DNA of 64,000 bases. It comes from an uncultured bacterium (GTDB taxonomy: Bacteria; Patescibacteriota; Minisyncoccia; UBA6257; 2-01-FULL-56-20). The notes beneath the pieces were generated by a model that was not told where the DNA came from, made no database searches, and worked only from the letters and a program-made list of their open reading frames with translations. Both the position numbers and the translations under genes were made by a program. Of the stretch, positions 3,001 to 56,676 are shown piece after piece. Within the stretch, counting starts at the first letter, position 1. Each line of letters begins with the position of its first letter. Location of the stretch: the NCBI GenBank assembly GCA_963844965.1, contig CAWJQC010000004.1, positions 1 to 64,000 of the forward strand, given 5' to 3'.

Positions 3001-6000
3001 CGCCGCCAATCGTATAGATGTATCCGTTATAGGCGACCGCGGAATGGTTGGCGATACCGCTCAGAAGTTTATTGGAGTTCGTAGACCACGCTCCCACCGC
3101 GCCGTTGGAACTTATCTGTGCATAGAAAACGGAGGAAGTAGCCGGAGTTGTGGCGGGAGCGCCGGTGGTTGATGTGGCTCCTCCCGTCGTGTAGATGTAG
3201 CCGTTGTAGACGACGGCGGAATGCCCGTAAAGAGCCGCAGTTGCGGGCAGGGAGGCCGCGTTCGTCGCCCACGTGTTGTCCACGCGCGTGAGGGTGCTTG
3301 AGCCATATAGGCCCGAGTTGTCGGGGTCATAGGCCTGCGCGCCCCACCAGTATGTGCCGGCTGTCAAGGTGTACTGAAAAATGCCGCTTGTTCCCGTCGC
3401 CGAAGTGGCGGAATAGGCCGTGCTGTTACTGGAACCGGAGGAAGCGTTCTGCCCGCTCCAGTTGGTCTGGCTTGAGGGCTCGGTGCTTGAAGTTACAACA
3501 TCCGTACACGCCTCGTTCTGGTAGAGAACCCACTTGTACTGCACGTACTGGTTAGAGGTTGATGTCAAAGTCGCCGTCATTTTGAATGTCGTGGAAGCGG
3601 TGTCAACTGTCGTCGTCGCGGCCACCGGAAAATTCAGTATCGGCCGCCGCGGCTGCGGCAGGGAAAGCGAAAGCGCGGGGTAGACGTTGTAAGAGTCAAA
3701 CGCAACAAAGCTCGCGCTCGTTGCCTCCTGAAGCCGGAAGTAGTAGGTTCCGTTGTTACCGTAGACATCCTGCGGACCAGCGCGGATGGCGTATTCCACT
3801 TCCGTCCAGGTAGAGGTCGGACTGCTGTAGGAAAAACCTATATTGACGAGTCCCGTCGTGCTTGAGGACTGCTTTATTTGGCCGGAAGTGGAAGCATTGG
3901 CGTCCGCGGTAAGCTGGGCGGTCGTGGAAGCGCCATCCGTAAAATTCGTTGAGGAGGCGATAAGGAAAAGTTGGCTGGAAAAAGTGGAGGTTGTGGGGAC
4001 CAGTGTCCAGGAACCGGAAGTCGCGTTGTATTGGTACTGAAGCTGGAGTTTGGGCTGGGTCGTTGTGGCGCGGGTGTTCGTAACCTCAATGCGCAGACGG
4101 TAAACGTTGGCCGTTGAGGTTGCGCTGCCCGTAGCGTTCTCCGCCGCCGTCTGCCAGACGGAGCTGGTTTCCGAGCCGGTATCGTTCCGCCAGCGGTAGC
4201 GCGTCTGCGTAAGATTGGGGGCGGCAGTGTAGGTAATGACGATGATACCCTTTGTGCCGTTGCCGCCGGCATTGGCTCTTCCTCCTCCTCCTCCGGCGGC
4301 GCCGGTAGGCGCCGCCGTTACTACCTGCCACGTTGCTGTTCGCTCCTCCTCCTCCTCCTCCGGCGCCGCCCGTCTCGTTGTTATTGGGAGAGGTTGCCGT
4401 CCAGTCCGTGTGCGTGCCGCCGACGCTTCCCGCCGCTCCTCCGAGCGCGCCGCAACCGCCGTTTCCGCCACGGCTGCTGGGGGTTGAACTCCCGACGCCG
4501 CAGTAGCTGGCAGCGCCTCCGCCCCCGCCGCCGACTGAAGTGGCGTTTGATCCGGCGCCACCGCCGTATAATATACTTCCGATGGAGCTTATTGTCGCTC
4601 CTCCCGCGCCTCCGGCTCTTTTGCTGTCGGTAGTGCTTGCCGCGCCGAATCCTCCCGCAGCGCACATCGAGGCACCGGTGCCTCCGCATGTCGTAGTGCT
4701 TACAGAAGCGCCGAACATCGTAGCGGTGCCGGTAGTCGCTGGCGTGGTGGAAGCGCCCAAGCCAACGTCGCCTACCTTAATACTTACGGAGGAACCGGCG
4801 ACGAGAGAGGTGCTGCCGTTTGCTATTTCAGCGTAGGCGGCGCCGCCTCCTCCTGCGCCGTAGCGGCCGCTACTAGCGCTTGTTGCTTTGGAGGCGCCGC
4901 CGCCGCCGCCGATGCCCTCAATCGTGTTTGAAGCAAGGTTCCAGTCGGCGGGCACTATCCAGCTCGTAACGGCGGTAGAGGTCACAAAAACGACCGTGTT
5001 CGCCGTGCCGGCGTCCGCCGCTATCTGCCACTGCCTCGTTTCTATAGGACTTATAAGACCTATAGGACTTATAGGAGCCGCGGTGAGCGGGCCCAGGAGA
5101 TAGAACTCCGGGCTCACGTTCGGCGCCTGGAATTCGTACCAAAGCGTGTGACTCTCGCCGGCCCGCCAGTTGACCTGCCAGGAAATATTTTGCGTGTCCG
5201 AACCGCAATTCACGAGACAAGTACTGCCGGACACGAGTACCCGTGACCTGCGACAGAAAACCGTTATCCTGCGATGCGTTGCCCGTTCCTTGCGTAGTGC
5301 CATCCATTCCCTGTTCCGCAACCTGGAAACCTTTCGGGACGGTTTCCGTGACCGTTCCGGAGAAATCCGACTGCGCGGCCGCCTTGATCTCCATCCTGTA
5401 GAACGCGGGCGGGTAAATTCTCGTGCGACCGATACGCTCCACGTTCCACAGCGGCGAATCCTCAACCGTGAAGCTGTCGCTCGTCGTTCGTTCGCCGTTC
5501 GCCGTCGTCGCCGTGAGCGTTACATTATAAGTGCCGGTCGCGTCCGGCTTGAAGGTCGCGTAGTAGTCGGGGGCGTTGGTGACGGTGGACGCGCCGCACT
5601 CGGAACTGCGCGTGATGGTGCCGTCTTCGGTGCTCATGACCGCGACGCCTCCGCTTGGCAGACCTGCCTGCGCAGGCAGGCTTATCGTGATATCGGCCTC
5701 GGCGTCGCAAATCGTGTGCCCCATGTCGTCCAAAACCGAAAATCCGATTCCCGCCTCGTCGCCGTCGCTCAAACTGTAAACCGTTTTATTGAAATTCAGA
5801 GCGATGACGCCCCAACTGAAGTCGCTCTGCGAGACATATACAGTGCCGTCCTTGACTATGAAAACCTTCACGGTGTAGCGGCCGGGGCGGAAGGAACTCC
5901 TTTTCGGGAAAGTGAACGTCAAACTGCTTCCGTTTTCCGTTGCCGAAGGCGAAATGTCCGGCATGAAATTCCCGTCCGGGCCGAAAACCTGAATGGCGTA

Positions 6001-6213
6001 GGGCGGAGCGGCACGGGCATGGGACACACCACACGCAACATGTAGCATGCAACATGTAACACCAGATAAAAAGAGGAAGGCAAAAAAGGCAGCAGCAAAA
6101 AATAACAAGAAATATGGGTGATACCGCCGGCTATTTTGAAGTTGAGAGGGAGTCATTTTGCCATATACCGCAAAACCAGCGGGACGAACAACCGCTTGTT
6201 CTAATTTTAACAC
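1..6213 (-). CDS. Giant secreted or cell-surface protein (about 2000 aa if contiguous) with N-terminal signal/TM, Ig/fibronectin-like beta domains, a Gly-rich segment and many Kelch-like beta-propeller repeats (motif AVAYNGYIYTxGG); broken into five or more frames (ORFs 4918..6213, 4086..5465, 2615..4561, 1851..2600, 488..1747, unlisted repeats in 1..487); runs off the left edge
   Basis: Consecutive minus-strand ORFs whose real parts abut; frame switches near 5230, 4330, 2670, 1800, 1350 and 480; repeats YNGYIYTIGG/SAVAYNGY in every piece; at 2670 one repeat unit is 1 nt shorter than its neighbours. Confidence 0.6.
2450..3250 (-). repeat. About 160-bp tandem coding repeats (5 units) encoding Kelch-like blades inside the giant surface-protein gene
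   Basis: Near-identical DNA units ...gtatagatgtatccgttataggcgac... recurring every ~160 bp. Confidence 0.8.
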
Positions 6214-9146: not shown

Positions 9147-9312
9147 TCATCACCCTTATTTTAACATTATTGCCGCAAAAAATTGTCCCCTCCTCTGGGG
9201 ATTAACGAAAACGGCCGGTTAGCGAATTGGTGTATTAACGAATTAACGTATTAACGAATTGTTTTTAATGCGTTAATTCGTTAATCCGTTAATTAACAAT
9301 AATCCGATAAAA

Positions 9313-10199: not shown

Positions 10200-10640
10200 A
10201 TTCTATAACATAATCGCAAGCGGGTCTAATAACACCTTGCCAGGTCGCCTGCCTGCCGGTTTACCCGCCGAAGGAGGACAGGCAGGTCTAACGGCCCACG
10301 CACCAAAACAAAGTTTGGTACGGGGTAAATAGGACATCGGCCGGCGCGAAGTCCCGCATAAAGCTGCGGGGTCGTCTAACTTGCCCCGCCGCACTTTAAA
10401 AAATCAAAAATAAATTTCTTGCCAGTGCTGCCGGGTCGTCTAATGGTAGGACATCGGCCTTTGGAGCCGAGTATCTTGGTCCGACTCCAAGCCCGGCAGC
10501 ACTGGCCGGAAAAGTGCGGCGGGGTGAAGTAGGACACGGGCCTTTGGAGCCCGGTATGAAGGTTCGATTCCTTCCCCCTCAGCACGAGCCACCGCAGTAT
10601 AATCCGACCCTACTCGCCATAGGTCGAGGAAGGCCGGATA
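10200..10640 (+). repeat. Cluster of tRNA-like repeats and pseudo-tRNAs; GTAGGACA(T/C)(C/G)GGCC occurs three times, gtcgtctaa twice, plus a P1/P2 palindrome
   Basis: Recurrent tRNA D-arm and anticodon-arm-like segments; only one unit folds into a complete cloverleaf. Confidence 0.5.
10429..10499 (+). tRNA. tRNA-Gln (anticodon TTG), no encoded CCA
   Basis: Acceptor tgccggg/cccggca, 3-bp D stem gtc/gac, anticodon stem tcggc/gccga with loop ctttgga, T arm cttgg-tccgact-ccaag; unusual C55 in the T loop. Confidence 0.5.
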
Positions 10641-12486: not shown

Positions 12487-14040
12487 TTAAGCTCCGCGTC
12501 CGGCATTTTCCCTAACTCCTTGATCCTTTTCTTCCAGCTTCTCTTTTATGTTTCGCTTCGGGTCGTCCAGAACTTCTTCAAGTAAAACCGACAAGATGAA
12601 CCCCACTCGCGGGCCGGGCGGAATGTCCAAAATCTTCATCACGTCGTCGCCTTTAACTTTGAGCATCTTCGGCGAGATCGGGTCGTGCTTCACTTTTTCT
12701 ATCATGAACAAAAGATGGCGCAGCTTATATGGGAAAGCTTTCGGGACGCCGGAACCGATGCGGTCGGCCTCGCGCACTTTGAGCAAGTCGGGAACGTTCT
12801 CCGGGCCGACGCGCGCCAAAAACCTCCGTACGCCTGCTTCCGTCACTTCTCCCACGTTGTAGTAGAAAAGATGGTAGCGCACGAGGTGCACGACTTTTTC
12901 CGCGAAATCCTTTGAGAAACGCAGGCGGTCCAGAGCTTTCGCCGCCATTTTCGCGCCGATATATTCATGCTGATAAAAAGTTGAGTCGGGCCCCTCGCCT
13001 CTTTTTGACTTGGGCTTGCCGAGGTCGTGCAAAAGCGAAGCCAGCCGCACTTCAAGCGAATAATTTTGCTTTACGGCGTAATCAAGCGCGCGGATGTTGT
13101 GCTCAAAAACCGAATAGATGTGATGCTTGTTCTGGCCGACGCCGAGCCCCTCCCGCAGTTCCGGCAGGACATACTGGAGCAAATTCAATTCTTCCAAAAG
13201 CAGAATTCCCTGCGCGGCGCGCGGCGCCATTATTATCTTCTCAAACTCGTCGCGGATCCGCTCTTTGGCGACGGCGTCCAGCAGCGGGCTCAGTTTTTCT
13301 ATCGCGCGGCGCGTTCCCAAATCGATCTGCCAGCCAGAGGCTGGTCCGCCTCCGGCGGAAAAATCAACCCCTCGACTTTGCTCGGGGTTGGCTCGTTCAT
13401 CGAACGAGCCAAGTTCCACGGCGAACCGCACGGCGCGCATGAGACGGAGCGCGTCTTCGTTGAATCGCTCTTCCGGCAGGCCCACGGTGCGGATAATTTT
13501 ATCTTTCAAATCTTTCCGGCCGTCGTACGGATCAATGATTCCCCCAGCTGTCCACCTGACAAGACCCATTGCGATCGCGTTTATCGTAAAATCGCGCCGC
13601 GACAGGTCTTCGTCAATCGTTTTCGCGAAGGTGATGTAATCGGGATGCCGCTTGTCGGTATATTTCCCCTCTTCCCGGAAGGTCGTCACCTCTACCACTC
13701 TTGTGGTCGCAGATACTCGCGGACTTAACGCCGAATCACGCTGAAAACTTTCTGCGTTATTCTGCGTACTGTCTGCGTCCTTCCGCGGTGCGAGTTTAAC
13801 GAGCACAGTGCCGAAATCGTTCTCGTAAACCGTTGACGGATTTTCCGGCGTGCCGCCGTGGAAATTCAGAAACAATTCCTGCACTTTATCGGGCGTCGCG
13901 TTAGTCGCCACATCCCAATCTTTCGGTTCCCGCCCGAGCAAAAGGTCACGCACGCAGCCGCCGACAAGATAGGCCTCGTAACCCTTTTCGCCAAGCAACG
14001 CGCCGATTCTCTTTTACTTCTCCGGGAATGTCGTGTTTCG
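12487..14040 (-). CDS. cca: CCA-adding tRNA nucleotidyltransferase with C-terminal HD domain; N-terminus disrupted by a 1-nt indel in an AAAA run near 13995
   Basis: GYEAYLVGGCVRDLLLGREPKDWDVAT; upstream frame MERKTKHDIPGEVK continues the canonical N-terminus; carries an in-frame palindromic insertion (FSAGGGPASGWQ) at 13331-13368. Confidence 0.85.
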
Positions 14041-15600: not shown

Positions 15601-15680
15601 TGGACCCGCCGGGAATTGAACCGGGACCACTGCCTACCGGCAGGCAGGTCAGCAACTCCGCACATAAACTTGTCATAACC
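15601..15680 (-). ncRNA. Non-canonical tRNA-like element: encoded CCA and a T-arm-like segment joined to a P1 palindrome (ctgcctaccggcaggcag) in place of a normal D/anticodon region
   Basis: tggacccgccgggaattgaaccggg is the reverse complement of a tRNA 3' end; no full cloverleaf can be drawn. Confidence 0.35.
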
Positions 15681-16180: not shown

Positions 16181-16254
16181 TGGTGGACCCACCGGGAATT
16201 GAACCCGGACCTCGGCAATGCGAATGCCGCGTAATGCCGTTTTACTATGGGCCC
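16181..16254 (-). tRNA. tRNA-Ala (anticodon CGC), CCA encoded
   Basis: Acceptor gggccca/tgggtcc (one G-U pair), D arm gtaa-aacggca-ttac, anticodon cggca-ttcgcat-tgccg, T arm ccggg-ttcaatt-cccgg. Confidence 0.8.
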
Positions 16255-17181: not shown

Positions 17182-19416
17182 CTACTTCTCCAATTTCAGC
17201 GATAAAATTTTGGACGTCCCGTCCTCATTCAATGTCACACCATAGAGTATGTCCGCGACTTCCATCGTGGCGCGGTTGTGCGTCACGATGACGAACTGCG
17301 TGCGTTTGGCAAACTCCTTGAGCATTTCGGCGAACCGCCTCGCGTTCCGTTCGTCAAGCGCGGCGTCAATCTCATCCAAAACCAGGAACGGCGGCGGGCT
17401 CACGGAGATCAAGGCAAAGAGCGCGGCGATTCCCACCAAACTTCTCTCGCCGCCGGAGAGCATCTCCAGGGAATTCACCTTCTTTCTCGGCAGGCGCAAT
17501 TCAATCTCCACGCCGCCTTCTTCCTCCGGCTCTTCTTCCGCTCCTCCTGCGGTTTTGTTCTCGTCGGGAACTTCCTGCGCCTCTTCATCCGTCCCCTCTT
17601 GACTCGTGACGCTTGACGCCTGACGCTTCTCTATCTTCAACTTCGCGTGCCCGCCGCCGAACATCACTTCAAAAAACTTGCCGAACTCCTCGTTTATACG
17701 GACGAGCGCTCCGCCAAATTCTTCCTTTATCTTTTCGCTTAGGTCCTTGATTAATTTCCTCAAATCAACGACCGCTTCCTCCAAATCCGCGGATTCTTTT
17801 TTCAGGAATTCGTACCGGGTTTCCGTATCGTGGGCTTCCCTCATCAGCGCTTCGTCTATTTCACCGATGCTCGCCAGGTCGCCACGTAATTTGAAAATTC
17901 TGCGCTCAATCTCTGGTAAATCTGTCTGAGCAACTATTTCTCCGCCAGAGGCGGATCCGCCTTCGGCGGAAAATTCGCGCGAATTACGCCCGGCTTGCGT
18001 TATCTGCCTCTCCAACTCCTCGCGCCTCAGCTCCAGACGTTCCTTTTCAAACAGAATTTCGCGATTTCGCGCCTCCCACTTCTCTATCTTATCCTTTACG
18101 GCCTCCACTCCCGAAACCGCCGTTTTAAAGGCGTGATAAAATTCCTCCTGATTTTTCTCCAACGCTTTCTCCTTATTTTTGAGATCAATCAATTCTTTCT
18201 CAAGCGCTTCCAGGTCGCGGTTAACTTTTTCAAATTGCGATTCTAAAGCGGGATTCGGCTCGGGCTTCGCCTTTGCCGCGCCGCTTTCTTTTATCTTTCC
18301 GCCTAAAATCTCTTCAATTTCCTCTATTGCGCTCCGTATCGCTTCCTGCATCTCAATCATGTCGCCGCGGAGGCCGTTCTCAAGCGTGCTCTTTATCCTT
18401 TTCACGAGTTCAAGTAATTTCGCGGAACTTGCGGCCTGCCCCGAATCGCCGCGGGGAGCGGCCGCCTGCGACATTTCTATCTGCGCCTCGATCCGTCCGA
18501 GTTCCTTCTGCAGCTGGCCCTTTTTGCCGAGCAGCTCCTGCGTCTGCTCTTTTATCTTTTCAATATCCCTTCTTCCTTCGGGCTGGCTCGCTTCCACTTT
18601 CGCCTGTTCCGCCTCCGCGGCTTTTTTCTCTCTTTCAAGAACCGCGAGCTCGCCGCGGTTCGCACCCGACTTTTTCTCCACATCGGCAAGACCCGTTCTG
18701 ATATCTTTAAGCTGGCTGCCGAAAAATTGATTCTCCAGATTTAGCAATTCTTCCGCGTACTCGCCTCGTTTTTCCCAGCGCGAGGTCTGGCGTTTCAACG
18801 ACCGGAGATGCGGCAGAATTTCCTCAACCAACGCTTTAACTTTATCCAAATTTATCTGGCTGTTTTTGAGCCGCCGCTCGGCGTCCGTTTTTTTAAGCTG
18901 ATATTCCCGAAGCCCGAGCACCTCTTCTATCATTTCCCGCCTCTCTTTCGGCGAAACGCGGATAAAAACGTCGCTGTTGCCTTGCGTCACGACAACAAGC
19001 CCGCGCGAGCCGAGCCGCGCTTTGGCGAAGAAATCAACGAGGTCGCGGAGTAGAATTTCCGACTTGTTCAAAAAGTAGCGGCTCGTGCCGTCGCGCCGGA
19101 TTTCGCGCATGACGGAAACCTCGGCAAAATCCACCGGGAAAAAATTATTGGCATTCTCAAAGTGCAAACTCGCCTGCGCCTGTCCCAGGCGCGGGCGCTT
19201 CGCCGTGCCCGCGAAAATCAAGTCGTCAATTCTGCCGCCGCGCAAACTTTTTGCGTCGCGCTCGCCGAGTAACCAGCGAATGGCGTCAACGACATTGGAC
19301 TTGCCGGAACCATTCGGCCCGACTATCGCCGTAATCCCTCCCGGAAACTCCAAAACCGTCTTCCCGGCGAAGGACTTGAAACCGTTTAATTCTAAGCGTT
19401 TGAGAAAGTGGGGCAT
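17182..19416 (-). CDS. smc: Chromosome segregation protein SMC (short form, 744 aa)
   Basis: Walker A GPNGSGKSN, coiled coils, signature LSGGERSLVGIAALFAL, Walker B VLDEIDAALDE; in-frame palindromic insertion FSAEGGSASGGE at 17942-17973. Confidence 0.85.
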   Translation of the reverse strand: MPHFLKRLELNGFKSFAGKTVLEFPGGITAIVGPNGSGKSNVVDAIRWLLGERDAKSLRGGRIDDLIFAGTAKRPRLGQAQASLHFENANNFFPVDFAEVSVMREIRRDGTSRYFLNKSEILLRDLVDFFAKARLGSRGLVVVTQGNSDVFIRVSPKERREMIEEVLGLREYQLKKTDAERRLKNSQINLDKVKALVEEILPHLRSLKRQTSRWEKRGEYAEELLNLENQFFGSQLKDIRTGLADVEKKSGANRGELAVLEREKKAAEAEQAKVEASQPEGRRDIEKIKEQTQELLGKKGQLQKELGRIEAQIEMSQAAAPRGDSGQAASSAKLLELVKRIKSTLENGLRGDMIEMQEAIRSAIEEIEEILGGKIKESGAAKAKPEPNPALESQFEKVNRDLEALEKELIDLKNKEKALEKNQEEFYHAFKTAVSGVEAVKDKIEKWEARNREILFEKERLELRREELERQITQAGRNSREFSAEGGSASGGEIVAQTDLPEIERRIFKLRGDLASIGEIDEALMREAHDTETRYEFLKKESADLEEAVVDLRKLIKDLSEKIKEEFGGALVRINEEFGKFFEVMFGGGHAKLKIEKRQASSVTSQEGTDEEAQEVPDENKTAGGAEEEPEEEGGVEIELRLPRKKVNSLEMLSGGERSLVGIAALFALISVSPPPFLVLDEIDAALDERNARRFAEMLKEFAKRTQFVIVTHNRATMEVADILYGVTLNEDGTSKILSLKLEK

Positions 19417-20108: not shown

Positions 20109-20203
20109 TCACATGCGCAAATTTCTAATTTCTAATATCTAATTTCTAAACCGCGAACGGTATCCGAAATTGGAAATTAGGAATCAGGAATTTACAAGAT
20201 TTT

Positions 20204-22139: not shown

Positions 22140-22943
22140 CTACAAAGTCAAGTGCTCGCAGAATGTCCGCCTGTGAACCGGGGAAATCCCCAATCGTCTT
22201 ATCGCTCTCCGGTGAGCACTCGTTCCGTACCCCTTGTGGACCTCAAAACCATACCGCGGATATTTTTTCGCCAGGCGGACCATCGCGCGGTCGCGCGAGA
22301 CCTTGGCAACTATGGAAGCCGCGGCGACCGCCTTTATTTTTTCGTCGCCCCGCACGACCGTGCGCGCTGATAAACGCAGATTTCTACGCGGATGTACGCG
22401 GATGTTCACGAAGCCATCGTTGTCGTTTTTCATATTACCCAGGTAAAGTCCGCCGTCCAAACAAACGCGACAAGCGACAAGCGACAAGTGACAAGTTACT
22501 ATGAGCCGACGGAATGCTCGCAATGCCGCCAAATTAGCGGCGCGCGAGATGTTCATCTTTTCTATTTGCCGTGGATAAACCCACGCGACCTCATAGGCAA
22601 CTGCCGGATGCTTTCTGAAATATTCAAACCACCTCTCCCGCTGTCTCGGGGTTAACCTCTTAGAATCCCGAATTTTTGTTTGAAAATTAGAAATTGCTTG
22701 CCCCGTACCGACCTGCCTGGCAGGCAGGGCTTTGCTCTGGTACGGGGAAAATTGAAAATTCCGTGGCGCCGCCACGGCCGCGACAACTACCGGTCCAGCC
22801 AAAGAACCCCGCCCCACCTCGTCAATACCAATTACAAATCGAGTGGGCGAGGCTCCCGGCCTCGTCCTCGACTGGATGAGTCGAGGCAGGCGCCTCTTGG
22901 CGGCGCGACCGACTTCGTCTATGCCGATGATATAATGCATCAA
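22140..22943 (-). CDS. rnhB: Ribonuclease HII with an in-frame N-terminal insertion/duplication
   Basis: IIGIDEVGRA...(30 aa)...VIGIDEVGRGSLAGPVVVAAV duplicated catalytic motif; a P1 palindrome lies in frame at 22712-22728. Confidence 0.8.
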   Translation of the reverse strand: MMHYIIGIDEVGRAAKRRLPRLIQSRTRPGASPTRFVIGIDEVGRGSLAGPVVVAAVAAPRNFQFSPYQSKALPARQVGTGQAISNFQTKIRDSKRLTPRQRERWFEYFRKHPAVAYEVAWVYPRQIEKMNISRAANLAALRAFRRLIVTCHLSLVACRVCLDGGLYLGNMKNDNDGFVNIRVHPRRNLRLSARTVVRGDEKIKAVAAASIVAKVSRDRAMVRLAKKYPRYGFEVHKGYGTSAHRRAIRRLGISPVHRRTFCEHLTL

Positions 22944-25522: not shown

Positions 25523-25607
25523 ACTTAATTATACTCCTATTTAAATAGATTCGCTCTAAGGTTCGAACCTATTTTACCCAATTAAAATCTATACTTTTTG
25601 TCTTTGT

Positions 25608-25688
25608 GCGCGGGAGAGGAGTCGAACCTCCATGCCTTGCGGCGCTACCACCTCAAGGTAGTGCGTCTGCCAATTTCGCCACCCGCGC
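25608..25688 (-). tRNA. tRNA-Leu (anticodon GAG), long variable arm
   Basis: Acceptor gcgcggg/cccgcgc, D arm gcg-aaattggcaga-cgc, anticodon ctacc-ttgaggt-ggtag, T arm ggagg-ttcgact-cctct. Confidence 0.75.
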
Positions 25689-26468: not shown

Positions 26469-26576
26469 TCCTGAAAACTAATGGCGCTTCCAACAGAGCG
26501 CCGTTTTTATTTGCAATTTAAAAATTATAATTATAAGTGAGCTTTTCACTGGCTTTGCGCCTGCCTACCGACAGGC

Positions 26577-26601
26577 AGGTCTGCCAATTTCGCCACCCGC
26601 G
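26577..26601 (-). repeat. Duplicated 5' end of tRNA-Leu (gcgcgggtggcgaaattggcagac) fused to a P1 palindrome (cctgcctaccgacaggcagg, 26560-26579); no T arm, so a tRNA fragment
   Basis: 25/25-nt identity with 25664-25688. Confidence 0.75.
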
Positions 26602-26701
26602 CGGGCACAGATAGAATTATAAACAAATTTCTCGTCATTTTCAAACCACCGAAGCTCATCGGGACTTTATTTGCTTACGCAAAGTATGCTAACATGTAGT
26701 C

Positions 26702-30439: not shown

Positions 30440-30570
30440 CCTGACTTTCACGCAAGCAGAACACTACCGGCTCGGCTATTAGCCGAGCTTTCTTTTTCTC
30501 CAAAAACCTGCCTACCGGCCCGCTTCGCCATAGCTTTAACGAGGCGAGCAGGCAGGTTTGGGCGGGTAAC

Positions 30571-31762: not shown

Positions 31763-32340
31763 TTGCGTGGGCAGTCGTGAATTTTACGCGGAAATGAACT
31801 TCCGCGCCGATCTGCGTTATGTCTGCGCTTGTCTGCGGTTGAACTTCGCCCGATATCTGAAAAAGAGCTTTTTAGTTGTCCCAACCTATCATGAAACACG
31901 CAACCTGAAACATGGAACATTACAAAATGTTTCATGCTTCATGTTTTATACTTCGTGCTTCACGTCGACTAACTATTTGTTAATAGTTTAATTGATCCAC
32001 GGGCAGCTTCCGCTACTCGTGCCTTGTTACGACTTATCCCATGTCACCGAGCTTAAGCTAAATCGCCTGAGGCGATCTTCACCTACTCCCGGCTCCCTTG
32101 GATTGACGGGCAGTGAGTACAGGACTCGAGAACGTATTCACCGCAACATAGCTGATTTGCGATTACTAGCGATTCCAGCTTCATGAGGGCAGGTTGCAGC
32201 CCTCAATCCGAACTGAGACCGGGTTTGATGGGATTAGCTCCGCCTTGCGACTTCGCAACCCATTGTCCCGGCCATTGTAGCACGAGTGTAGCCCAGGGCA
32301 TCAGAGGGCCATGCTGATTTGACGTCATCCCCTCCTTCCT

Positions 32341-32439
32341 CCCCGCTCAGAAACCACGAGACATGAGACACACGTCACGACTCACAAATTTATTGTGCAT
32401 CGTGCTACGTGTATCGTGCATCATGAACTCTGAGCGGGG
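32341..32439 (-). other. 16S intervening sequence 1: about 100-nt hairpin insertion closed by an 11-bp stem (ccccgctcaga/tctgagcgggg) in the helix 39/40 region
   Basis: Sequence between the conserved 1100 and 1190 blocks replaced by a self-complementary insert. Confidence 0.7.
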
Positions 32440-32511
32440 CAGTTTCGCGTGACACTTGTAACACACGATAGGGGTTGCGCTCGTTACCCCACTTAAGGGA
32501 ACACTTCAAAG

Positions 32512-32542
<31 letters not shown>

Positions 32543-32669
32543 ACGTGACGTCCTTGAGAGAGGGCCCGCCTTTCGGCAAGCTTTCGTCACGAATTTCAAG
32601 CCCTGGTAAGGTTCCTCGCTTACTGTCGAATTAAACCTCATGCTCCACCGCTTGTGCGAGTCCCCGTCT

Positions 32670-32701
<32 letters not shown>

Positions 32702-33161
32702 TCCCAGGCGGCCGACTTAACGCGTTAGCTCCGCCACTCCGAGGGTCGATACTCGAAACAGCAAGTCGGCATCGTTTAGGGCGTGGACTACAAGGGTATC
32801 TAATCCTTTTTGCTCCCCACGCTTTCGCGTCTCAGAGTCAGGAAGGTCCCAGTGCCATGCCTTCGCCTTTGGTGTTCCGCACGATATCAACGGATTTCAC
32901 CCCTACACCGTGCGTTCCAGGCACCTCTAACCTCCTCTAGTTTCGCCGTATCTCCTGCACTTCCACCGTTAGGCGGTGGGATTTAACAGAAGACGCACGA
33001 AACCTCCTACACGCTCTTTACGCCCAATAAATCCGGATAACGCTCGAGGTCTACGTATTACCGCGGGTGCTGGCACGTAGTTACCAACCTCTTTCCGTAT
33101 GGTACGGTCACCCAGCACTTTTGGAACGAACTTTTCTAATTTGCTCAAATTTTTGGAGGTA

Positions 33162-33190
33162 TTGACAACAGCAATCACTTCTGCTATAAT
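33162..33190 (+). promoter_or_regulatory. Perfect consensus sigma70 promoter (TTGACA-17-TATAAT) inside IVS-2, oriented antisense to the rRNA
   Basis: ttgacaacagcaatcacttctgctataat. Confidence 0.6.
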
Positions 33191-33269
33191 GCCCATAGCA
33201 CATTGGGAGACCAACGTGCCGCACGTCGGGCCTCAGCCCTTGTGCAATTCCCAAAAGGAGAATTGATTT

Positions 33270-33461
33270 ATGCGTGCCAAATTCCCGTCACAAGTCACGG
33301 ATCGAATACTGGAAGCAGCCAAGAAAGAGTACTCCTTCCAGATCAATCATGCGGAATTAGGGCGGCGGCTGTTTACGCGCAAGCACTGTGGCACGAGAAT
33401 GGTTCAGGTAAAAGTCTTTCTGCAAGGAAGACAACAACCTGCCATACTCGGAAAACAATAA
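33270..33461 (+). CDS. 63-aa ORF inside 16S IVS-2, antisense to the rRNA (MRAKFPSQVTDRILEAAKKEYSFQINHAELGRRLFTRKHCGTRMVQVKVFLQGRQQPAILGKQ); has its own promoter, SD and terminator
   Basis: SD aaaaggagaa 6 nt before ATG; intrinsic terminator ctgccaccagaagctttccggtggcag plus TTTTTT at 33543-33575. Confidence 0.45.
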   Translation: MRAKFPSQVTDRILEAAKKEYSFQINHAELGRRLFTRKHCGTRMVQVKVFLQGRQQPAILGKQ

Positions 33462-33542
33462 CCACAGATGCACGGACGCCGCAGTATGCCCCGTTTGTTT
33501 GCTGGCATATGTCATGACTAACGACTAGCTGCCACCTTTCTA

Positions 33543-33575
33543 CTGCCACCAGAAGCTTTCCGGTGGCAGTTTTTT
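33543..33575 (+). terminator. Rho-independent terminator of the IVS-2 mini-gene
   Basis: 11-bp GC-rich stem followed by a T6 run. Confidence 0.6.
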
Positions 33576-34434
33576 AAATCCAAAAATTTGAGCAAATTAG
33601 TTTTCCCGCCAAAAGTGCTGGGTTCTTCCCATACTACCGCAGTTTACAACCCGAAGGCCTTCTTCCTGCACGCGGCGTCGCTCGATCAGGCTTTCGCCCA
33701 TTGTCGAATATTCTCGGCTACTGCCACCCGTAGGTGTACGAACCGTTTCTCAGTTTCGTCGTTGGGGGTCAGGCTCTCACCTCCCCTACCGGTCATAGCC
33801 TTGGTAGGCCGTTACCCTGCCAACTAGCTGATCGGACCTAGGCCGCTCTTGGAGCGTCTTGCGACTTTGGATGCGAATGGCTTTCGCCCCCGCATCATCA
33901 TCAGGAATTACCCCGCCTTTCGGCGAGCTGTGCCCGTCTCCAAGGTACGTTACCAAGGTGTTACTAACTCGTTCGCCGCTCACTATTTTCCTTGCGGAAA
34001 ATAGTTCGCTCAACTTGCATGCCTTATCCACGCCGCCAGCGTTCATCCTGGACCAGGATCAAATCCTCAGTAAAAATCGCGCATTTATTCAATACGCGAG
34101 ATTGTGCGCCATGCATGACGCCCAAACTCGCGCATCTCACTCGTGCGTGAGTTCATACCGCGATTGATTTATTGATCTCGGTTTATTTCAATTCCAAACC
34201 GAAAAATGAATCTTATTGGGACAACTAAAAAACTCTTTTTTATTTACTTTTCTCATATTAATTTTTCAATCTGCAGTCGGCGCAGTCCTTTACCCCGCAC
34301 ATTACCTTCGGTAATAACGGGGCGAGCAACAAAACATCCCCCCTACACATTCTAAACCTCAGAAGAATGTGTAGGGCGGATGTCTTTAGACACACCATAA
34401 TATTGAGATATCAAACCTATCCGTTTTCCATATT

Positions 34435-34770: not shown

Positions 34771-34955
34771 TCCCCCTACACATTGTTTGAATTTTGACAA
34801 TGTGTAGGGAAAACCAAGGAAACAAGGAAGCGGCCTCTACGTGAGGCCGCTTCGCGTTCTTGCTCGGATAAAAATCGGTCGTATTGCAAACTGTCCGATA
34901 TTTGTAAATCGGCTGCCCGCCACAATCGGCTGACCTCAAAAACGCGAAACTATTT

Positions 34956-39514: not shown

Positions 39515-39666
39515 TGTTTTAACTGTTTAATAATTTTACGGATACGACCTTTTTAGTAAGATACCAATATACAAATGCATGCAAATGATACAAATAATAC
39601 GAATTAATTATTAGTATCCATTCGTATCATTAGTACCATTTGTATATTTGTATCATAGTTTCAAAT

Positions 39667-40749
39667 TTATTCCAGTATTTCTGCAATTTGTTTGATCATC
39701 GCGAGCGCTACCGGTGCCGGCAATAAACTATAGGAATCAACGCCTTCGTCATCTTTCACGACCCACGGACTTTCAACGACTTTTATTTTCCCCGAAGAGT
39801 CGCGCTCGTAACTGTAAGCCGGCGTTATTTCGTAATCATCCACAAACTCCGCGGCCTTCGCGACCGGCACAGAGTTGCGGAGATAAACCTTGGGCACGCC
39901 GTGAAGTTCAAGAAGTTTGTTGAAAACCTTCTCGTCGGTTTCCAAGCGCTCTCTGATGGGCTCAATGCCGAGTTCGTCACCCTCTTTGGGCACCATCCGC
40001 GCGCCGTTGCACGAAGGGTTATCGCATATCAAATAAAATTCTTTTTTATCCCTGTCGTATCCCACCTCCTTCGTGGCAAGGAGTTTCGTGTTGCGCGGCG
40101 TCTTGCAAATCGGGCAGACGACGCGCGTTTTTATCCTTGCGTCAATGATGGAAGTCGGCAAACTTATGAACACAAAAAAGTCCGGGTCATCGCGGTAGCC
40201 CAGAAGCTCGCGCAAAAATATTGAATAATTTATCTGGTCCAAGCCGCGCGGAAAGCCGTCTATGAAAATCGCTTGCCTCGGCCGCTTGGAAATCTCATAT
40301 TTCAAAAGGGCCAAAATAAGTTCGGTGGAAACGAGCGAGGACTGACTCCGCCCCTCTATCAATCCGTCTATTTCTTCCAAACTGTGAAAGCCGCGGTAGT
40401 TCTTTTTGAAAAATTCGCTCAATTCTTTTTTCTTCGCCGAATCGGAAAGCCCGGCATGCACGTCACGGACGATGTCCCCCACCGCCACGTGGCCGACATG
40501 GCCTGCCTCGCCGGCAGGCAAACCGCCGCCGATGGTCTCCATGAAAAGCTTGGAGTAAGTGCCCTTGCCAGAATTCTTTTTGCCCAAAAGGTAGCCGACG
40601 AACGTTTTGCCGCTCGCTAAATATTTCCTTATTTTTTCAATTTCCTTGCCGGCCTTCAATTTAAAATACTCCCGGCGCTCGTCCGGGTCGTTCAGGTTGA
40701 ACTTTCGGTCAACTCCCTTTACTTTTGTTTTGAATATAGGGAAATCCAC
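39667..40749 (-). CDS. Atypical long adenylate/nucleoside-monophosphate kinase family protein with a zinc-ribbon LID
   Basis: P-loop GKKNSGKGTYSKLF, FIDGFPRGLDQ, CPICK...CDNPSCNG; in-frame P1 palindrome encodes GGGLPAGEAGHVGH at 40502-40520. Confidence 0.55.
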   Translation of the reverse strand: MDFPIFKTKVKGVDRKFNLNDPDERREYFKLKAGKEIEKIRKYLASGKTFVGYLLGKKNSGKGTYSKLFMETIGGGLPAGEAGHVGHVAVGDIVRDVHAGLSDSAKKKELSEFFKKNYRGFHSLEEIDGLIEGRSQSSLVSTELILALLKYEISKRPRQAIFIDGFPRGLDQINYSIFLRELLGYRDDPDFFVFISLPTSIIDARIKTRVVCPICKTPRNTKLLATKEVGYDRDKKEFYLICDNPSCNGARMVPKEGDELGIEPIRERLETDEKVFNKLLELHGVPKVYLRNSVPVAKAAEFVDDYEITPAYSYERDSSGKIKVVESPWVVKDDEGVDSYSLLPAPVALAMIKQIAEILE

Positions 40750-40794: not shown

Positions 40795-42252
40795 CTATGC
40801 CTTTGACTTTTTAATTCCCAATCCTAACTCATTCAATTGTTTTTTGTCCACATCGCTCGGCGAACCCATCATCGGGTCATAGCCCTCGCCAGTTTTCGGG
40901 AATGCAATAACTTCGCGGATGTTCGGCTCGTTTTGCAAAACAGTAACCAGGCGGTCAAGTCCCCAGGCGATGCCGCCATGCGGCGGCGCGCCGAAACTCA
41001 GCGCCTCAAGCATGTGCCCGAACTTCGCCTGTATCTCCGTGTCACTGTAGCCCATAATACTAAACACTGCCTTGAGTGCTTCGGGCCTGTGATTGCGCAT
41101 ACTGCCGCCGCCGATCTCCAGTCCGTTCAAAACAACATCGTATTGGCTTGTCAAAATTCCGGCAATATTTTTCTGCGCCAGCAAATCATCCATAAACTCC
41201 GGCTTCGGCGCGGAAAATGGGTTGTGCGTAAAAGTCCATTTGGTTTTCTCTCCGCCAGAGGCGGATCCCTGCCCGCCGGCAGGCGCGGCGCCTTCGGCGG
41301 AAAAAAACGGAAAATCAATTATCCAGCAAAAAGCCAAAAGGTTCGGGTCGTTCTTATCCTTCCGTAAATCCGGCCGGTCGGTTTTATATTTTTCAGCAAC
41401 ATCTTTATAGCTCAGACGCGGGAAAGGAATTTCCTGAATTTTTTTGTCCGGATAGAGGGTCTCCACTATCTTTATCAGAAGTTCTTCGTTTATCGCCATC
41501 ACATCCTCGCGTTCCACGAAGCTCATCTCCAGATCAAGTTGCGTGAATTCCGGCTGCCTGTCTCCTCTTGTGTCCTCGTCGCGGAAACAACGGGCAATCT
41601 GGAAATATTTTTCCAATCCGCCGACCATCAAAAGCTGTTTATACTGCTGCGGCGACTGCGGCAAAGCGTAAAACTGTCCTTTGAAAATGCGTGACGGCAC
41701 AAGATAATCGCGTGCGCCTTCCGGCGTGGATTTTGACAGCACCGGCGTTTCTATTTCCAAAAATCCTTTCCCATCCAGAAAATCTCGTATTAACTTGATT
41801 ATTCTGTGCCGCGAAATCAAGTTTTTCTGCAAGCGCGCGCGCCGCAAATCCAAATATCTGTATTTCAGGCGGGTTTCCTCGTTGATCTCGTAACCGTCGG
41901 CGTCAACGGAAATCGGCGTGGCTTCCGAGCGATTCAGGATTTCCAGTTCGGTCGCGCTGACTTCATAGTGACCGGTCGGCAACTTGTCGTTCACCATCGC
42001 CGGCGGCCGCTTCTTGACCTCGCCTTTCACTCGCACGACATATTCCAGCCGCAGGTCGCCGGCGCCTGATAATGATGGCCCTCCGCCAGAGGCGGATCCG
42101 CCTTCGGCGGAAAAAACGACCTGCGCTAAACCGCTCCGGTCGCGGAGGTCAATAAAAACCAATTTCCCGTGGTCGCGCCGCGCGTGAACCCAACCGCAAA
42201 GCTCAACTTCTTTGCCTTCGTTTTTTATGATTTCTGATACAGATACCCGCAT
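40795..42252 (-). CDS. aspS: Aspartate--tRNA ligase, archaeal/eukaryal-type short form (no GAD domain)
   Basis: Class II aaRS motifs, N-terminal OB fold; 485 aa; two in-frame palindromic insertions (42083-42114 and 41262-41304). Confidence 0.85.
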   Translation of the reverse strand: MRVSVSEIIKNEGKEVELCGWVHARRDHGKLVFIDLRDRSGLAQVVFSAEGGSASGGGPSLSGAGDLRLEYVVRVKGEVKKRPPAMVNDKLPTGHYEVSATELEILNRSEATPISVDADGYEINEETRLKYRYLDLRRARLQKNLISRHRIIKLIRDFLDGKGFLEIETPVLSKSTPEGARDYLVPSRIFKGQFYALPQSPQQYKQLLMVGGLEKYFQIARCFRDEDTRGDRQPEFTQLDLEMSFVEREDVMAINEELLIKIVETLYPDKKIQEIPFPRLSYKDVAEKYKTDRPDLRKDKNDPNLLAFCWIIDFPFFSAEGAAPAGGQGSASGGEKTKWTFTHNPFSAPKPEFMDDLLAQKNIAGILTSQYDVVLNGLEIGGGSMRNHRPEALKAVFSIMGYSDTEIQAKFGHMLEALSFGAPPHGGIAWGLDRLVTVLQNEPNIREVIAFPKTGEGYDPMMGSPSDVDKKQLNELGLGIKKSKA

Positions 42253-43096: not shown

Positions 43097-43604
43097 TTTT
43101 GTTGCTGGCAATCCGTAAGCCGGATTCTGTCGCGCCTGCCTGTCGGCAGACGATGCGATCATTTATCTGGGCCCTTGATTGCTCGCGGGCTCAAGCGGCA
43201 CTTCCACCTCATCGGCGGACACGGCCTTGCACCCAGTAAGGATTTAGCCGTTTCATCTCCACTTTTTTATCCCTATGGCGGAGCTGGACCGACTAGCTTG
43301 GGATTGGGTCCGTCCGACTTTTTCAAATCGGACCGTTTCTGCTCGCACCTCTATTCTTACGAACGACGGCTGTTAGCCGCTACTATTTTATCCCTCCCCA
43401 GTTTTGCCAGTAATGTCACTGGCAAAACTGGGGAGGGATGGTGTCCGGACTTTCCTCCCTACATTTTCTAGAATTTTAAGAAAATGTAGGGCGATCGCCT
43501 AGATTGCCAGCTAACTACAGTGTAACATTCTATCAAAAAAAATCAAGTCCGGAAGCAGTGTTCGCGACTAGCCGGTGATATTTTAATTCACGGCGGACAT
43601 ACCT

Positions 43605-56614: not shown

Positions 56615-56676
56615 GTATCACGCAACATGAAACATGTAGCAGTTAAAACGGTGCTACATGTTTCGTGTTATATGTT

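What the first reader, a model, noticed from the sequence alone, without database searches (positions are those of the whole stretch)
10248..10286. Pervasive 20-bp palindrome family CCTGCCT(R)CCG(R)CAGGCAGG, intergenic, next to tRNA fragments, and in frame inside CDSs
Copies lie at 5663-5680 (inside the giant surface-protein CDS), 10248-10286 (split by a P2-like ccgccgaagg insert), 15631-15648 (in the tRNA-like element), 22712-22728 (in rnhB), 26560-26579 (fused to the tRNA-Leu 5' fragment), 30507-30556 (split by a nested hairpin), 40502-40520 (in the AK-like CDS as PAGEAG), 43134-43149, and nested inside the aspS P2 copy. Nesting of P1 within P2 and the reverse suggests active hairpin mini-elements that colonise both coding and non-coding DNA.
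Basis: seen in the sequence. Interest (0 to 1): 0.6.

Follow-up and report, generated by a model that had tools for sequence, protein, structure and literature searches.

The report
Tiny 20-base palindrome insertion element
A 20-base DNA palindrome (CCTGCCTGCCGGCAGGCAGG) has been inserted cleanly about ten times in this small uncultured (Patescibacteria) genome, into protein genes (kept in frame), tRNA-derived fragments, the RNase P RNA gene and other mini-hairpins; the same 20-mer occurs in hundreds of unrelated environmental and viral contigs, so it behaves like one of the smallest mobile DNA elements known, and what moves it is unknown.

Summary
All listed copies exist at the stated coordinates. 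Paired CCTGCCT/AGGCAGG arms occur 5 times against 0.06 expected. I add a tenth, degenerate copy in the rnhB 5' extension.

P1 is a discrete 20-nt insertion. Deleting it in silico rejoins three tRNA-derived sequences exactly, with no target duplication or loss. An empty and a filled site sit side by side in a related contig.

In coding sequence the copies are lineage-specific inserts whose net length is a multiple of 3 (18 or 21 nt, or composites). They usually read LPAG(R/K/E)QG. Non-coding copies are 20 nt, so the coding copies are most likely translated rather than spliced.

Nesting goes both ways: P1 inside P2, a P2 half inside P1, and P1 inside P1 elsewhere.

The identical 20-mer is present in at least 120 metagenome contigs, 53 viral stretches, other Paceibacterota, and a Bacteroidota-type GH115 gene. 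It is absent from 7.3 Gb of plasmids from cultured bacteria.

"Active" is not shown for P1 here: no two window copies are identical, all but the nested-insert carrier at 10248 deviate from the consensus, and the rnhB insert predates a 69%-identity split.

The mechanism is inferred only. The closest analogues are Rickettsia RPEs and cyanobacterial SDRs. I judge it a new variant of a known kind.

The parts
5663..5680 (.). P1 copy, an 18-nt perfect palindrome (centre CG deleted). It lies in the surface-protein ORF 4918-6213 (-) and is read as LPAQAG. Together with the 26560 copy it shares the flank P1+TCTGCCAA.
   Evidence: Homologues show only a variable loop here, so whether it is an insertion is inconclusive.
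10238..10294 (+). tRNA-Gln pseudogene 5' fragment (10238-10247 and 10287-10294), interrupted between tRNA nt 10 and 11 by P1 (10248-10286). P1 itself carries a nested 19-nt P2 half (10260-10278) after its nt 12.
15601..15655 (-). tRNA-Ala 3' fragment (32/35 match to nt 37-71 of the tRNA-Ala at 16184-16254). A 20-nt P1 (15629-15648) is inserted in its variable loop.
22701..22747 (-). Composite hairpin inside rnhB. The outer arms are CCCCGTACC/GGTACGGGG (22701-22709 and 22739-22747) and enclose a 17-nt P1 (22712-22728). It is part of a ~20-aa insert, SPYQSKALPARQVGTGQAIS.
22860..22890 (-). Degenerate P1 (CCTGCCT...AGGACGAGG) with a nested hairpin CGACTCATCCAGTCG. It lies in the duplicated N-terminal extension of rnhB and is read as RLPRL.
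26556..26602 (-). tRNA-Leu 5' fragment (27/27 match to nt 1-27 of the tRNA-Leu at 25607-25688). A 20-nt P1 (26560-26579) is inserted at the junction of D-loop and D-stem.
30507..30556 (.). Intergenic P1, split after nt 12 by a 30-nt nested hairpin.
40502..40520 (-). P1 of the 21-nt type in the adenylate-kinase-like CDS (39667-40749). It is a 7-aa insert, GLPAGEA, that two homologues lack.
41250..41304 (-). P2 double hairpin in aspS with a 21-nt degenerate P1 (41268-41287) inserted near its centre. Read as FSAEGAAPAGGQGSASGGE.
42081..42114 (-). Intact P2 (30-nt core, TCCGCC-GAA-GGCGGA TCCGCC-TCT-GGCGGA) in aspS at the N-terminal site. It adds 10 aa that 22 of 23 aligned orthologues lack. It is identical to the copy in smc.
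17940..17973 (-). Intact P2 in smc, read as FSAEGGSASGGE. It is 34/34 identical to the copy at 42081.
13329..13362 (-). Diverged P2 in the CCA-adding enzyme gene. It lies within a ~25-aa segment that a homologue lacks.
43134..43149 (-). Truncated P1 (15/16 nt) forming a small hairpin just 5' of the P4 3' strand, in a variable part of the RNase P RNA gene (43101-43510).

Best explanation
P1 is a non-autonomous palindromic mini-insertion element with a 20-nt unit, CCTGCCTGCCGGCAGGCAGG. As a single strand it folds into an 8-bp stem with a CCGG loop.

Shown:
- It enters DNA as an exact 20-nt block, without target duplication or target loss.
- A minority of copies, well above control positions, lie at the apex of larger hairpins. 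Other copies lie in tRNA-gene arms, other mini-palindromes, and the centre of P1 itself.
- In coding DNA the copies are frame-preserving (18 or 21 nt, or composites) and have no stop codons. They add short Pro/Ala/Gly-rich segments, mostly LPAG(R/K/E)QG, at variable positions of otherwise conserved proteins.
- Copies then decay in place.
- The family is shared by distant lineages and viral contigs.

Inferred:
- Spread is by copy-and-paste or cut-and-paste of the folded single strand into single-stranded or loop DNA during replication or repair.
- The agent acts in trans and is not encoded by the element. Candidates are a Y1/HUH-type single-strand transposase, or nuclease plus ligase handling of extruded hairpins, with template switching as an alternative.
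- In this genome, P1 underwent an old burst and P2 a more recent one.
For: Excess over chance.

Exact insertion:
- Joining the flanks rebuilds tRNA-Leu nt 1-27 (27/27), tRNA-Ala nt 37-71 (32/35) and tRNA-Gln nt 1-18 (16/18), with intact paralogous tRNA genes nearby.
- L144 holds TCCCGACGTACG|TCGGGA next to TCCCGACGTACG|P1|TCGGGA.
- In 179 unique copies there is no duplication of 2 nt or more.

Insertions relative to orthologues:
- aspS, both sites.
- Adenylate-kinase-like gene, 7 aa.
- rnhB, about 20 aa, shared only with the closest orthologue.
- GH115, 6 aa relative to solved structures.
- AtpA, PheS, UvrC, RNase J, PurH, DinB and LigA carry the 20-mer inside Pfam-verified genes. Only LigA has Pfam evidence that the copy is extra sequence (two matched stretches flanking it); for the other six, insertion relative to homologues was not tested.

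Frame:
- 12 of 16 verified CDS copies use the LPAG frame (binomial 8e-4).
- Window CDS copies are 17, 18 or 21 nt (17 within a frame-preserving composite), and a 21-nt variant recurs in CDSs elsewhere. Non-coding copies are 20 nt.

Structure preference and nesting:
- Flanks form a stem of 7 bp or more in 13% of copies against 1.4% of control positions.
- P1 in P1 in five contigs. P1 in P2 and a P2 half in P1.

Real rather than assembly artefact: the three LigA inserts are identical in six assemblies.

Spread:
- At least 120 metagenome contigs, 53 viral stretches, other Paceibacterota, and a SusC/SusD locus.
- No exact copy in 7.3 Gb of plasmids.

Decay pattern: 0 of 25 degenerate copies show compensatory changes.
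Against: - No mobilising enzyme was identified. About 45 window ORFs include only an IS3-family DDE transposase (46378-47420) and no Y1/HUH protein. A P1-rich contig (L185) carries only housekeeping genes.
- No presence/absence polymorphism between close strains was seen.
- There is no conserved target motif, only depletion of T at position -1.
- The copies at 5663 and 26560 share 8 nt of flank (TCTGCCAA, native tRNA-Leu D-loop sequence). This fits imprecise templated copying better than a precise transposase.
- P1-in-P1 could also arise by arm slippage followed by quasipalindrome correction.
- Some high-GC hits may be chance: a composition-matched control palindrome gave 20 viral hits, all in high-GC contigs.
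Confidence: 0.65

Rival explanations
1. P1 is a functional cis-element kept by selection, not an inserted parasite. Candidates are a protein-binding or recombinase core site (7-bp inverted arms around a 6-bp GCCGGC spacer), a terminator or RNA-stability hairpin, or a DNA-uptake signal.
For: - The geometry resembles tyrosine-recombinase core sites (my own knowledge).
- Recombination between P1 copies could contribute to the tRNA half-fragments.
- The three intergenic or tRNA-fragment copies at 15629, 26560 and 30507 have their stem mismatches as G-T on the minus strand.
- Many copies elsewhere sit at the apex of intergenic hairpins.
Against: - Copies lie inside conserved catalytic domains, tRNA arms and RNase P RNA, at non-orthologous positions.
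- No T-run follows the hairpin.
- Single arms are not enriched: 7 of 8 CCTGCCT 7-mers lie in full, degenerate or truncated P1 copies.
- Degenerate copies show no compensatory changes.
- Flanks rejoin exactly when P1 is removed, so P1 is not at the fragment boundary as a recombination junction would be.
Confidence: 0.12
2. The palindromes arise locally by replication errors: slippage in the (CCTG)n-like arms plus template-switch "quasipalindrome correction". They would then be products of a mutational process at hairpins, with the shared sequence due to convergence or occasional gene conversion rather than a mobile unit.
For: - The P1 arm is a short tandem repeat (CCTG CCTG CC).
- Many copies sit between "stutter" arms of tandem 7-nt units. 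Direct repeats of 8 nt or more occur in the flanks of 11% of copies against 1.5% of controls (LigA).
- P1-in-P1 equals a symmetric arm duplication.
- A tandem array of at least 10 units with a 21-nt period exists in L253.
- The 8-nt flank shared by two window copies suggests templated copying.
Against: - The identical 20-mer at more than 170 unrelated loci, in contigs of 29-71% GC, cannot be convergent.
- The insertions are exact 20-nt blocks into sequences that have no CCTG repeats, such as the tRNA-Leu D-loop and the L144 hairpin.
- There are no exact copies in 7.3 Gb of plasmids.
Confidence: 0.13
3. The CDS copies are not translated. They would be removed from the RNA as mini-introns or skipped by the ribosome, so their coding frame is irrelevant.
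For: - Patescibacteria are rich in introns in rRNA and tRNA genes (PMC13011429).
- The 16S gene here is about 550 nt longer than the model.
- P1 also sits in structural RNA genes.
Against: - The non-coding unit is 20 nt, but every CDS case tested preserves the frame and has no stop codons. Sizes are 18, 21 and 33 nt, or composites of 60-72 nt.
- One frame is preferred in 12 of 16 cases.
- The old rnhB insert has diverged as protein-coding sequence in two lineages.
Confidence: 0.04
4. The pattern is an artefact of metagenome assembly or of chance in GC-rich sequence.
For: - The window comes from a metagenome-assembled genome. Palindromic k-mers can mislead assemblers.
- A composition-matched control palindrome also had 20 viral hits.
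Against: - Zero hits in shuffles.
- Inserts are in frame and identical across six independent assemblies, and are shared by orthologues from different studies.
- The control hits are all in high-GC coding-like sequence with varied cores. P1 hits are mostly the perfect core, in contigs of 29-71% GC.
- A second control gave 0 hits.
Confidence: 0.02

Closest known systems
Rickettsia palindromic elements (RPE; Ogata et al. 2000; reviewed in PMC10969869)
   Same: Palindromic repeats inserted in frame into unrelated housekeeping genes, and also found in non-coding DNA. They are read in a preferred frame as an extra peptide, occur in a reduced genome, and have no known transposase.
   Different: RPEs are about 100-150 bp, encode 30-50 aa, and are confined to Rickettsia. 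P1 is 20 nt (6-7 aa), is self-nesting, and the identical sequence is shared by Paceibacterota, a Bacteroidota-type locus and viral contigs.
Small dispersed repeats SDR4-6 of Nostoc (Elhai et al. [quoted passage not shown]
   Same: Repeats of 21-27 nt with the hallmarks of mobility: near-identical copies, insertion into one another, and a location inside hairpin-forming host sequences. The mechanism is unknown.
   Different: SDRs are in cyanobacteria and are unrelated in sequence (not tested here). In-frame colonisation of conserved protein genes and cross-phylum or viral distribution were not features of SDRs, as far as I recall.
REP / REPIN elements mobilised by RAYT (Y1 HUH) transposases (PMC3116915, PMC3733652)
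   Same: 20-40-nt GC-rich palindromes, dispersed in high copy, forming single-strand hairpins. They are non-autonomous and leave no target duplication.
   Different: REPs are extragenic, carry a conserved GTAG or CGTC head, work as inverted doublets, and co-occur with a RAYT gene. P1 has no such head, is a single perfect palindrome, enters CDSs and RNA genes, and no RAYT was seen in the window.
Hairpin elements of organelle genomes: double-hairpin elements of Allomyces mtDNA (my own knowledge) and repetitive hairpin-forming elements of sponge mtDNA (PMC2800124)
   Same: Short GC-rich single or double hairpins that spread into intergenic DNA, rRNA variable regions and coding regions. P2 is literally a double hairpin.
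   Different: Those elements are in organelle genomes, their families are lineage-specific, and they are unrelated in sequence.

Membership tests
Rickettsia palindromic elements (RPE) | In-frame insertion into unrelated protein-coding genes, read in a constant frame | tested here: met
   Orthologue alignments. 12 of 16 verified CDS copies use the LPAG frame.
Rickettsia palindromic elements (RPE) | Element of about 100-150 bp belonging to one of the RPE sequence families of Rickettsia | tested here: not met
   The unit is 20 nt. The host is Patescibacteria. Sequence comparison with RPE consensus sequences was not run.
REP/REPIN-RAYT | Short palindrome with a conserved GTAG or CGTC tetranucleotide at one end | tested here: not met
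   Flank composition of 179 copies shows no conserved head, only T depletion at position -1.
REP/REPIN-RAYT | Extragenic location, organised as inverted doublets | tested here: not met
   5 of 10 window copies lie in CDSs and the copies are single palindromes.
REP/REPIN-RAYT | A RAYT (Y1 transposase) gene in the same genome | not testable with these tools
   None among about 45 window ORFs. The rest of the 216-kb contig and of the genome could not be fetched.
MITE | Terminal inverted repeats flanked by a target-site duplication, derived from an IS | tested here: not met
   No duplication of 2 nt or more. Exact rejoining of flanks. At 20 nt it is far below MITE size.
IS200/IS605-derived palindrome-associated elements | No target duplication | tested here: met
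IS200/IS605-derived palindrome-associated elements | Insertion 3' of a fixed tetra- or pentanucleotide, with a TnpA gene present | tested here: not met
   No fixed flank for P1. P2 follows a T-run in the copies seen, which is suggestive only. No TnpA in the window.
Very small mobile repeats (cyanobacterial SDR type) | Unit of about 20-27 nt, near-identical dispersed copies, insertion into one another and into hairpin-forming sequences | tested here: met
   The defining list is recalled from memory because the paper was not readable.
Intrinsic terminator | GC-rich hairpin followed by a T-run downstream of a gene | tested here: not met
   No T-run after the copies at 15629, 26560 or 30507. Half of the copies lie inside genes.
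DNA uptake signal sequence | Over-representation of the single oriented motif, not only of inverted pairs | tested here: not met
   7 of 8 CCTGCCT 7-mers lie in palindromic or degenerate P1 copies.

The most novel reading that the evidence does not exclude
P1 is a genuinely mobile DNA of only 20 nt that recognises DNA structure (hairpin loops and palindrome centres) rather than sequence. It needs no terminal repeats or target duplication. It crosses phylum boundaries (Patescibacteria, Bacteroidota, and hosts of high-GC phages), probably carried by viruses, and is moved by an enzymology not yet described. One possibility is excision and re-ligation of extruded hairpins, or a hairpin-specific single-strand integrase. 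If so, it would be a general source of new surface loops in proteins and of tRNA pseudogenes in uncultured bacteria.
Probability: 0.3. Interest if true: 0.8.

Novelty: new variant of a known kind. Interest (0 to 1): 0.62.

Why it matters
If P1 moves as it appears to, it sits near the lower size limit for mobile DNA. It would also show that a bare perfect palindrome can spread through genomes and between lineages.

- It gives a concrete, datable source of the many small lineage-specific inserts that pepper Patescibacteria proteins, here in AspRS, RNase HII, LigA, PheS and ATP synthase.
- It explains some of the tRNA-like fragments that confuse annotation.
- It offers clean empty and filled site pairs with which the insertion chemistry could be worked out.
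- In practice, the motif is a useful marker for annotation. Masking it helps gene calling, tRNA finding and alignment in these genomes.

Tried and rejected
- **Target-site duplication.** The 9-bp AATTTTCAA repeat flanking the rnhB insert looked like one. Orthologues without the insert carry the same "stutter" sequence (NLEF..NLG), so it is pre-existing hairpin arm, not a duplication. A census of 179 copies found none of 2 nt or more.
- **tRNA association as a general rule.** Rejected: 6 of 191 copies lie within 100 nt of a tRNA gene against 2.6 expected, and only 1 of 194 interrupts an intact tRNA.
- **Known RNA families at P1 sites.** None found with Rfam at E up to 1 over 10000-31000.
- **Looking for the source record or close strains.**
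  - The exact AspRS sequence is not on record in the contig index.
  - Synteny with the closest fetched relative is not kept.
- **Looking for a mobilising enzyme.** Nothing found in the window or in a P1-rich contig.
- **Placing a high-GC viral contig.** No match by similarity to GenBank phages.
- **Literature.**
  - No paper holds the 20-mer or the LPAGRQ string.
  - No report of such elements in Patescibacteria was found.
  - The Elhai 2008 paper is not held.
- **Surface-protein copy.** Homologues are only 30-40% identical and the site is a variable loop, so the result is inconclusive.
- **AspRS structure model.** It is only of moderate quality (mean pLDDT 64). That both inserts fall in low-confidence coil is weak support.

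Full report
**Context**

The window is from a Patescibacteria (CPR) genome of the Paceibacterota/Parcubacteria group.
- The AspRS encoded at 40795-42252 (-) is 100% identical to a protein from a 216-kb NCBI/ENA contig. Its next hits are Patescibacteria, Liptonbacteria and Ryanbacteria proteins at 70-78% identity.
- GC is about 50% and most genes are on the minus strand.
- The window holds seven tRNA genes, an RNase P RNA gene at 43101-43510 (-), and a 16S gene that spans 2090 nt against a 1533-nt model.

**Observation**

- Three are full 20-mers or nearly so: 15629, 26560 and 41268.
- Two are the 20-mer with a foreign hairpin inserted after nt 12. At 10248 it is a 19-nt degenerate P2 half. At 30507 it is a 30-nt hairpin.
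- Three are shortened or lengthened versions inside genes: 18 nt at 5663, 17 nt at 22712, and the 21-nt type at 40502.
- One, at 43134, is a 15/16-nt truncated copy that lies inside the RNase P RNA gene just 5' of the P4 3' strand.
- I found one more degenerate copy with a nested hairpin at 22860-22890.

The excess over chance is large.
- There were no matches in 100 dinucleotide shuffles.
- Five arm pairs occur against 0.06 expected, Poisson 6e-9.
- In an unbiased census of all 7-mer hairpin arms, P1 is the leading dispersed family.

**P1 is an exact 20-nt insertion**

The three intergenic copies do not merely adjoin tRNA fragments. They interrupt them. With P1 removed in silico, the flanks join as follows:
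- GCGCGGGTGGCGAAATTGGCAGA|CGCA, a 27/27 match to nt 1-27 of the tRNA-Leu 900 bp away.
- TTGCTGA|GGTCCCGGTTCAATTCCCGGCGGGTCCA, a 32/35 match to nt 37-71 of the neighbouring tRNA-Ala.
- TGCCAGGTCG|TCTAACGG, a 16/18 match to nt 1-18 of tRNA-Gln.

The insertion points are the D-loop/D-stem junction, the variable loop and the D-arm.

A related contig supplies an empty and a filled site side by side. In L144, two tandem degenerate tRNA-Ala-like units differ by TCCCGACGTACG|TCGGGA against TCCCGACGTACG|CCTGCCTGCCGGTAGGCAGG|TCGGGA. No bases are duplicated or lost in any of these cases.

Across 179 unique copies from other contigs:
- There is no duplication of 2 nt or more.
- A 1-nt repeat is only mildly enriched (42% against 28%).
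- The only flank signal is depletion of T at position -1.

**Coding copies are inserts that keep the frame**
- In AspRS, most orthologues read VVF-GP and FFEKADGGGW. The window reads VVF[SAEGGSASGG]GP and FF[SAEGAAPAGGQGSASGG]EKTKW.
- Other genomes (P0011, P0024, L009, L072) have a clean P2 at the second site. At the DNA level the window differs from L072 by 21 nt of P1 placed 2 nt from the P2 centre.
- The adenylate-kinase-like protein has a 7-aa insert, GLPAGEA, that two homologues lack.
- RNase HII has a ~20-aa composite insert in which P1 sits inside an outer hairpin, CCCCGTACC/GGTACGGGG. The insert is absent from 16 orthologues. It is present in diverged form (RLPDGQG) in the closest one, at 69% identity. 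That insertion is therefore old and has since evolved as coding sequence.
- The surface-protein copy sits in a variable loop and cannot be judged.
- Outside the window, the intact 20-mer lies inside Pfam-verified genes for PheS, UvrC, RNase J, an ATP synthase subunit, PurH, GH115, DinB and LigA. Insertion relative to homologues was checked only for GH115 and, through the split Pfam match, LigA.
- In GH115 it is a 6-aa insert relative to two solved structures.
- The Wolfebacteria LigA carries three P1 inserts, each at the apex of a "stutter" palindrome. They are identical in six independent assemblies.
- Twelve of 16 verified coding copies use the frame C|CTG|CCT|GCC..., giving LPAG (binomial 8e-4).
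- A 21-nt variant, CCTGCCTGCCGGCAAGGCAGG, recurs in coding regions.
- The non-coding unit is 20 nt, while every coding case tested has a net extra length that is a multiple of three, with no stop codons. Translation is therefore the parsimonious reading. A spliced or bypassed element would not need this.
- A moderate-quality AspRS model places both inserts in low-confidence coil between strands. This is weak support for tolerated surface loops.

**Structure preference and nesting**
- P1 flanks form a perfect stem of 7 bp or more within 10 nt in 13% of copies, against 1.4% of control positions.
- Direct "stutter" repeats in the flanks are also enriched.
- P1 sits at or within 1 nt of the centre of another P1 in five contigs.
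- In one viral contig, P1 forms the variable arm of an otherwise canonical tRNA-Met.
- The foreign inserts in the two split window copies are both after nt 12.
- Degenerate copies show no compensatory double changes, 0 of 25. This is the pattern of decaying repeats, not of a conserved RNA structure.

**Distribution**
- The 20-mer, allowing transitions at four central positions, is present in at least 120 metagenome contigs, where the scan stopped at its limit.
- It is also present in 53 viral-contig stretches and in three of 83 other Paceibacterota loci. Flanks are unrelated.
- Contig GC ranges from 29 to 71%, with modes near 0.40-0.50 and 0.60-0.70.
- Hosts that could be named are Patescibacteria (Wolfebacteria LigA, PheS). 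One Bacteroidota-type polysaccharide-utilisation locus was identified through its SusC/SusD, GH67 and GH43 genes.
- Controls:
  - One composition-matched palindrome gave 0 viral hits.
  - Another gave 20, all in high-GC coding-like sequence with varied cores. A few high-GC P1 hits may therefore be chance.
  - However, 7.3 Gb of plasmids from cultured bacteria contain no exact copy, and GenBank phages contain none.
- Density:
  - The window has about 10 copies in 64 kb. The other Paceibacterota loci have 3 in 1.28 Mb, so this genome had a burst.
  - P2 half-hairpins are likewise about 11 times denser here.

**Activity**

No two window P1 copies are identical, and each except the one at 10248 differs from the consensus. 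The rnhB insert is ancient. Only P2 has two 34/34 identical copies, at 17940 and 42081. "Active" is therefore not shown for P1 in this genome. P2 may be more recent.

**Mechanism**

Shown:
- An exact 20-nt block with no duplication.
- Enrichment at hairpin apices in a minority of copies, insertion into loop positions of tRNA-derived sequence, and nesting at palindrome centres.
- Frame-filtered survival in genes.
- Wide horizontal distribution, including viral contigs.

Inferred: the folded single strand is inserted into single-stranded DNA by something acting in trans. The candidates, in my order of preference, are:
- A Y1/HUH single-strand transposase of the IS200/IS605 or RAYT kind. This gives no duplication and recognises hairpins. 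However, no fixed target motif and no such gene were seen.
- Junction-specific excision of extruded hairpins, followed by their ligation into nicks.
- Template switching during replication. This is favoured by the 8-nt flank TCTGCCAA, native tRNA-Leu D-loop sequence, which is shared by the copies at 5663 and 26560.

None of these could be tested here.

**Comparison and novelty**

The behaviour matches Rickettsia RPEs in its in-frame colonisation of housekeeping genes (PMC10969869). It matches the 21-27-nt nested SDRs of Nostoc (cited in PMC3116915; details from memory). P1 fails the defining tests for REP/REPIN (no GTAG/CGTC head, not extragenic), MITEs (no duplication), terminators and uptake signals.

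No paper in the library contains the 20-mer or describes such elements in Patescibacteria.

I rate it a new variant of a known kind. What is new is the combination of minimal size, self-nesting, in-frame coding inserts, and one identical sequence shared across distant lineages and viral contigs.

Noticed in passing
window 31985-34074 (-); hairpin arms 32341-32387 / 32393-32439: The 16S rRNA gene spans 2090 nt against a 1533-nt model, so it carries about 550 nt of insertions. One of them is a ~100-nt "stutter" hairpin with 47-nt arms. No P1 or P2 copy lies inside the gene.
   Followed up: no
window 43390-43439 and 43457-43491 (RNase P RNA); 34341-34376 and 34774-34809 (upstream of 16S): RNase P RNA carries a perfect 22-bp hairpin insert. 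Its P3 helix is a 13-bp CCCTACA...TGTAGGG hairpin, and two more members of that hairpin family lie in the 16S leader region. The RNase P match barely reaches the Rfam threshold (100.2 against 100 bits).
   Followed up: partly
window 9225-9294, 20119-20192, 31891-31949, 39557-39657, 56121-56217, 56613-56680, 58829-58944, 59756-59841: Long AT-rich intergenic hairpins whose arms are tandem "stutter" repeats of roughly 7-nt units, such as AATTTCT. The same style of arm flanks P1 in other contigs and lies inside LigA and RNase HII coding sequence. Their origin and role are unexplained.
   Followed up: partly
window 22791-22943 (-), rnhB 5' end; orthologues in alignment A4: RNase HII starts with a duplicated IGIDEVGR motif separated by a GC-rich hairpin-coding segment (AAKRR...). 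Several orthologues have two or three tandem copies of this ~20-aa unit. This is partial duplication of the target next to a hairpin insert, the same theme as the tRNA fragments.
   Followed up: no
window 10300-10428 and 10515-10582: Further tRNA-Gln-derived pieces lie upstream of the real tRNA-Gln (10429-10500), for example a 13-nt exact match TAGGACATCGGCC. A degenerate second tRNA-like gene follows it (32.8 bits).
   Followed up: partly
window 46378-47420 (+): An IS3-family insertion sequence, with an 87-aa HTH orfA and a 260-aa rve-domain orfB. It is the only transposase seen in the window and has no evident link to P1.
   Followed up: partly
window 12487-13998 (-), CCA-adding enzyme: Besides the P2-containing segment, the protein has two more extra segments that a 57%-identical homologue lacks (LNFHGGTPEN and a ~23-aa stretch). 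The homologue has a 24-aa insert of its own. Small lineage-specific inserts appear to be common in these proteins.
   Followed up: no
alignment A1 (aspS orthologues), around residues 317-335 of the window protein: The same AspRS loop hosts different inserts in different lineages: AHSEASAQE, PSTGSGQA, and HPELVE...SGSTGSPQTS. These look like translations of other widespread hairpin repeats. The site is an insertion hotspot.
   Followed up: no
L253 3916-4142 (viral contig IMGVR_UViG_3300025106_000007): A tandem array of at least 10 P1-like units with a 21-nt period (CCATGCCTACCGGCAGGCAGG) runs to the end of the stretch of the contig that was fetched. It is readable as (MACLPVG)n.
   Followed up: no
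L144 1060-1360: Tandem degenerate tRNA-Ala-like units, each ending in CCA plus a terminator hairpin. Their T-loop and acceptor regions are riddled with P2-half and other hairpin inserts.
   Followed up: partly
window 4086-6213 (-): The surface-protein gene (MG2-domain homologues) appears frameshifted. Homology to relatives stops at about residue 330 of ORF 4918-6213, and an overlapping ORF (4086-5465) continues. The cause is either a pseudogene or an assembly error in a 61% GC stretch.
   Followed up: no
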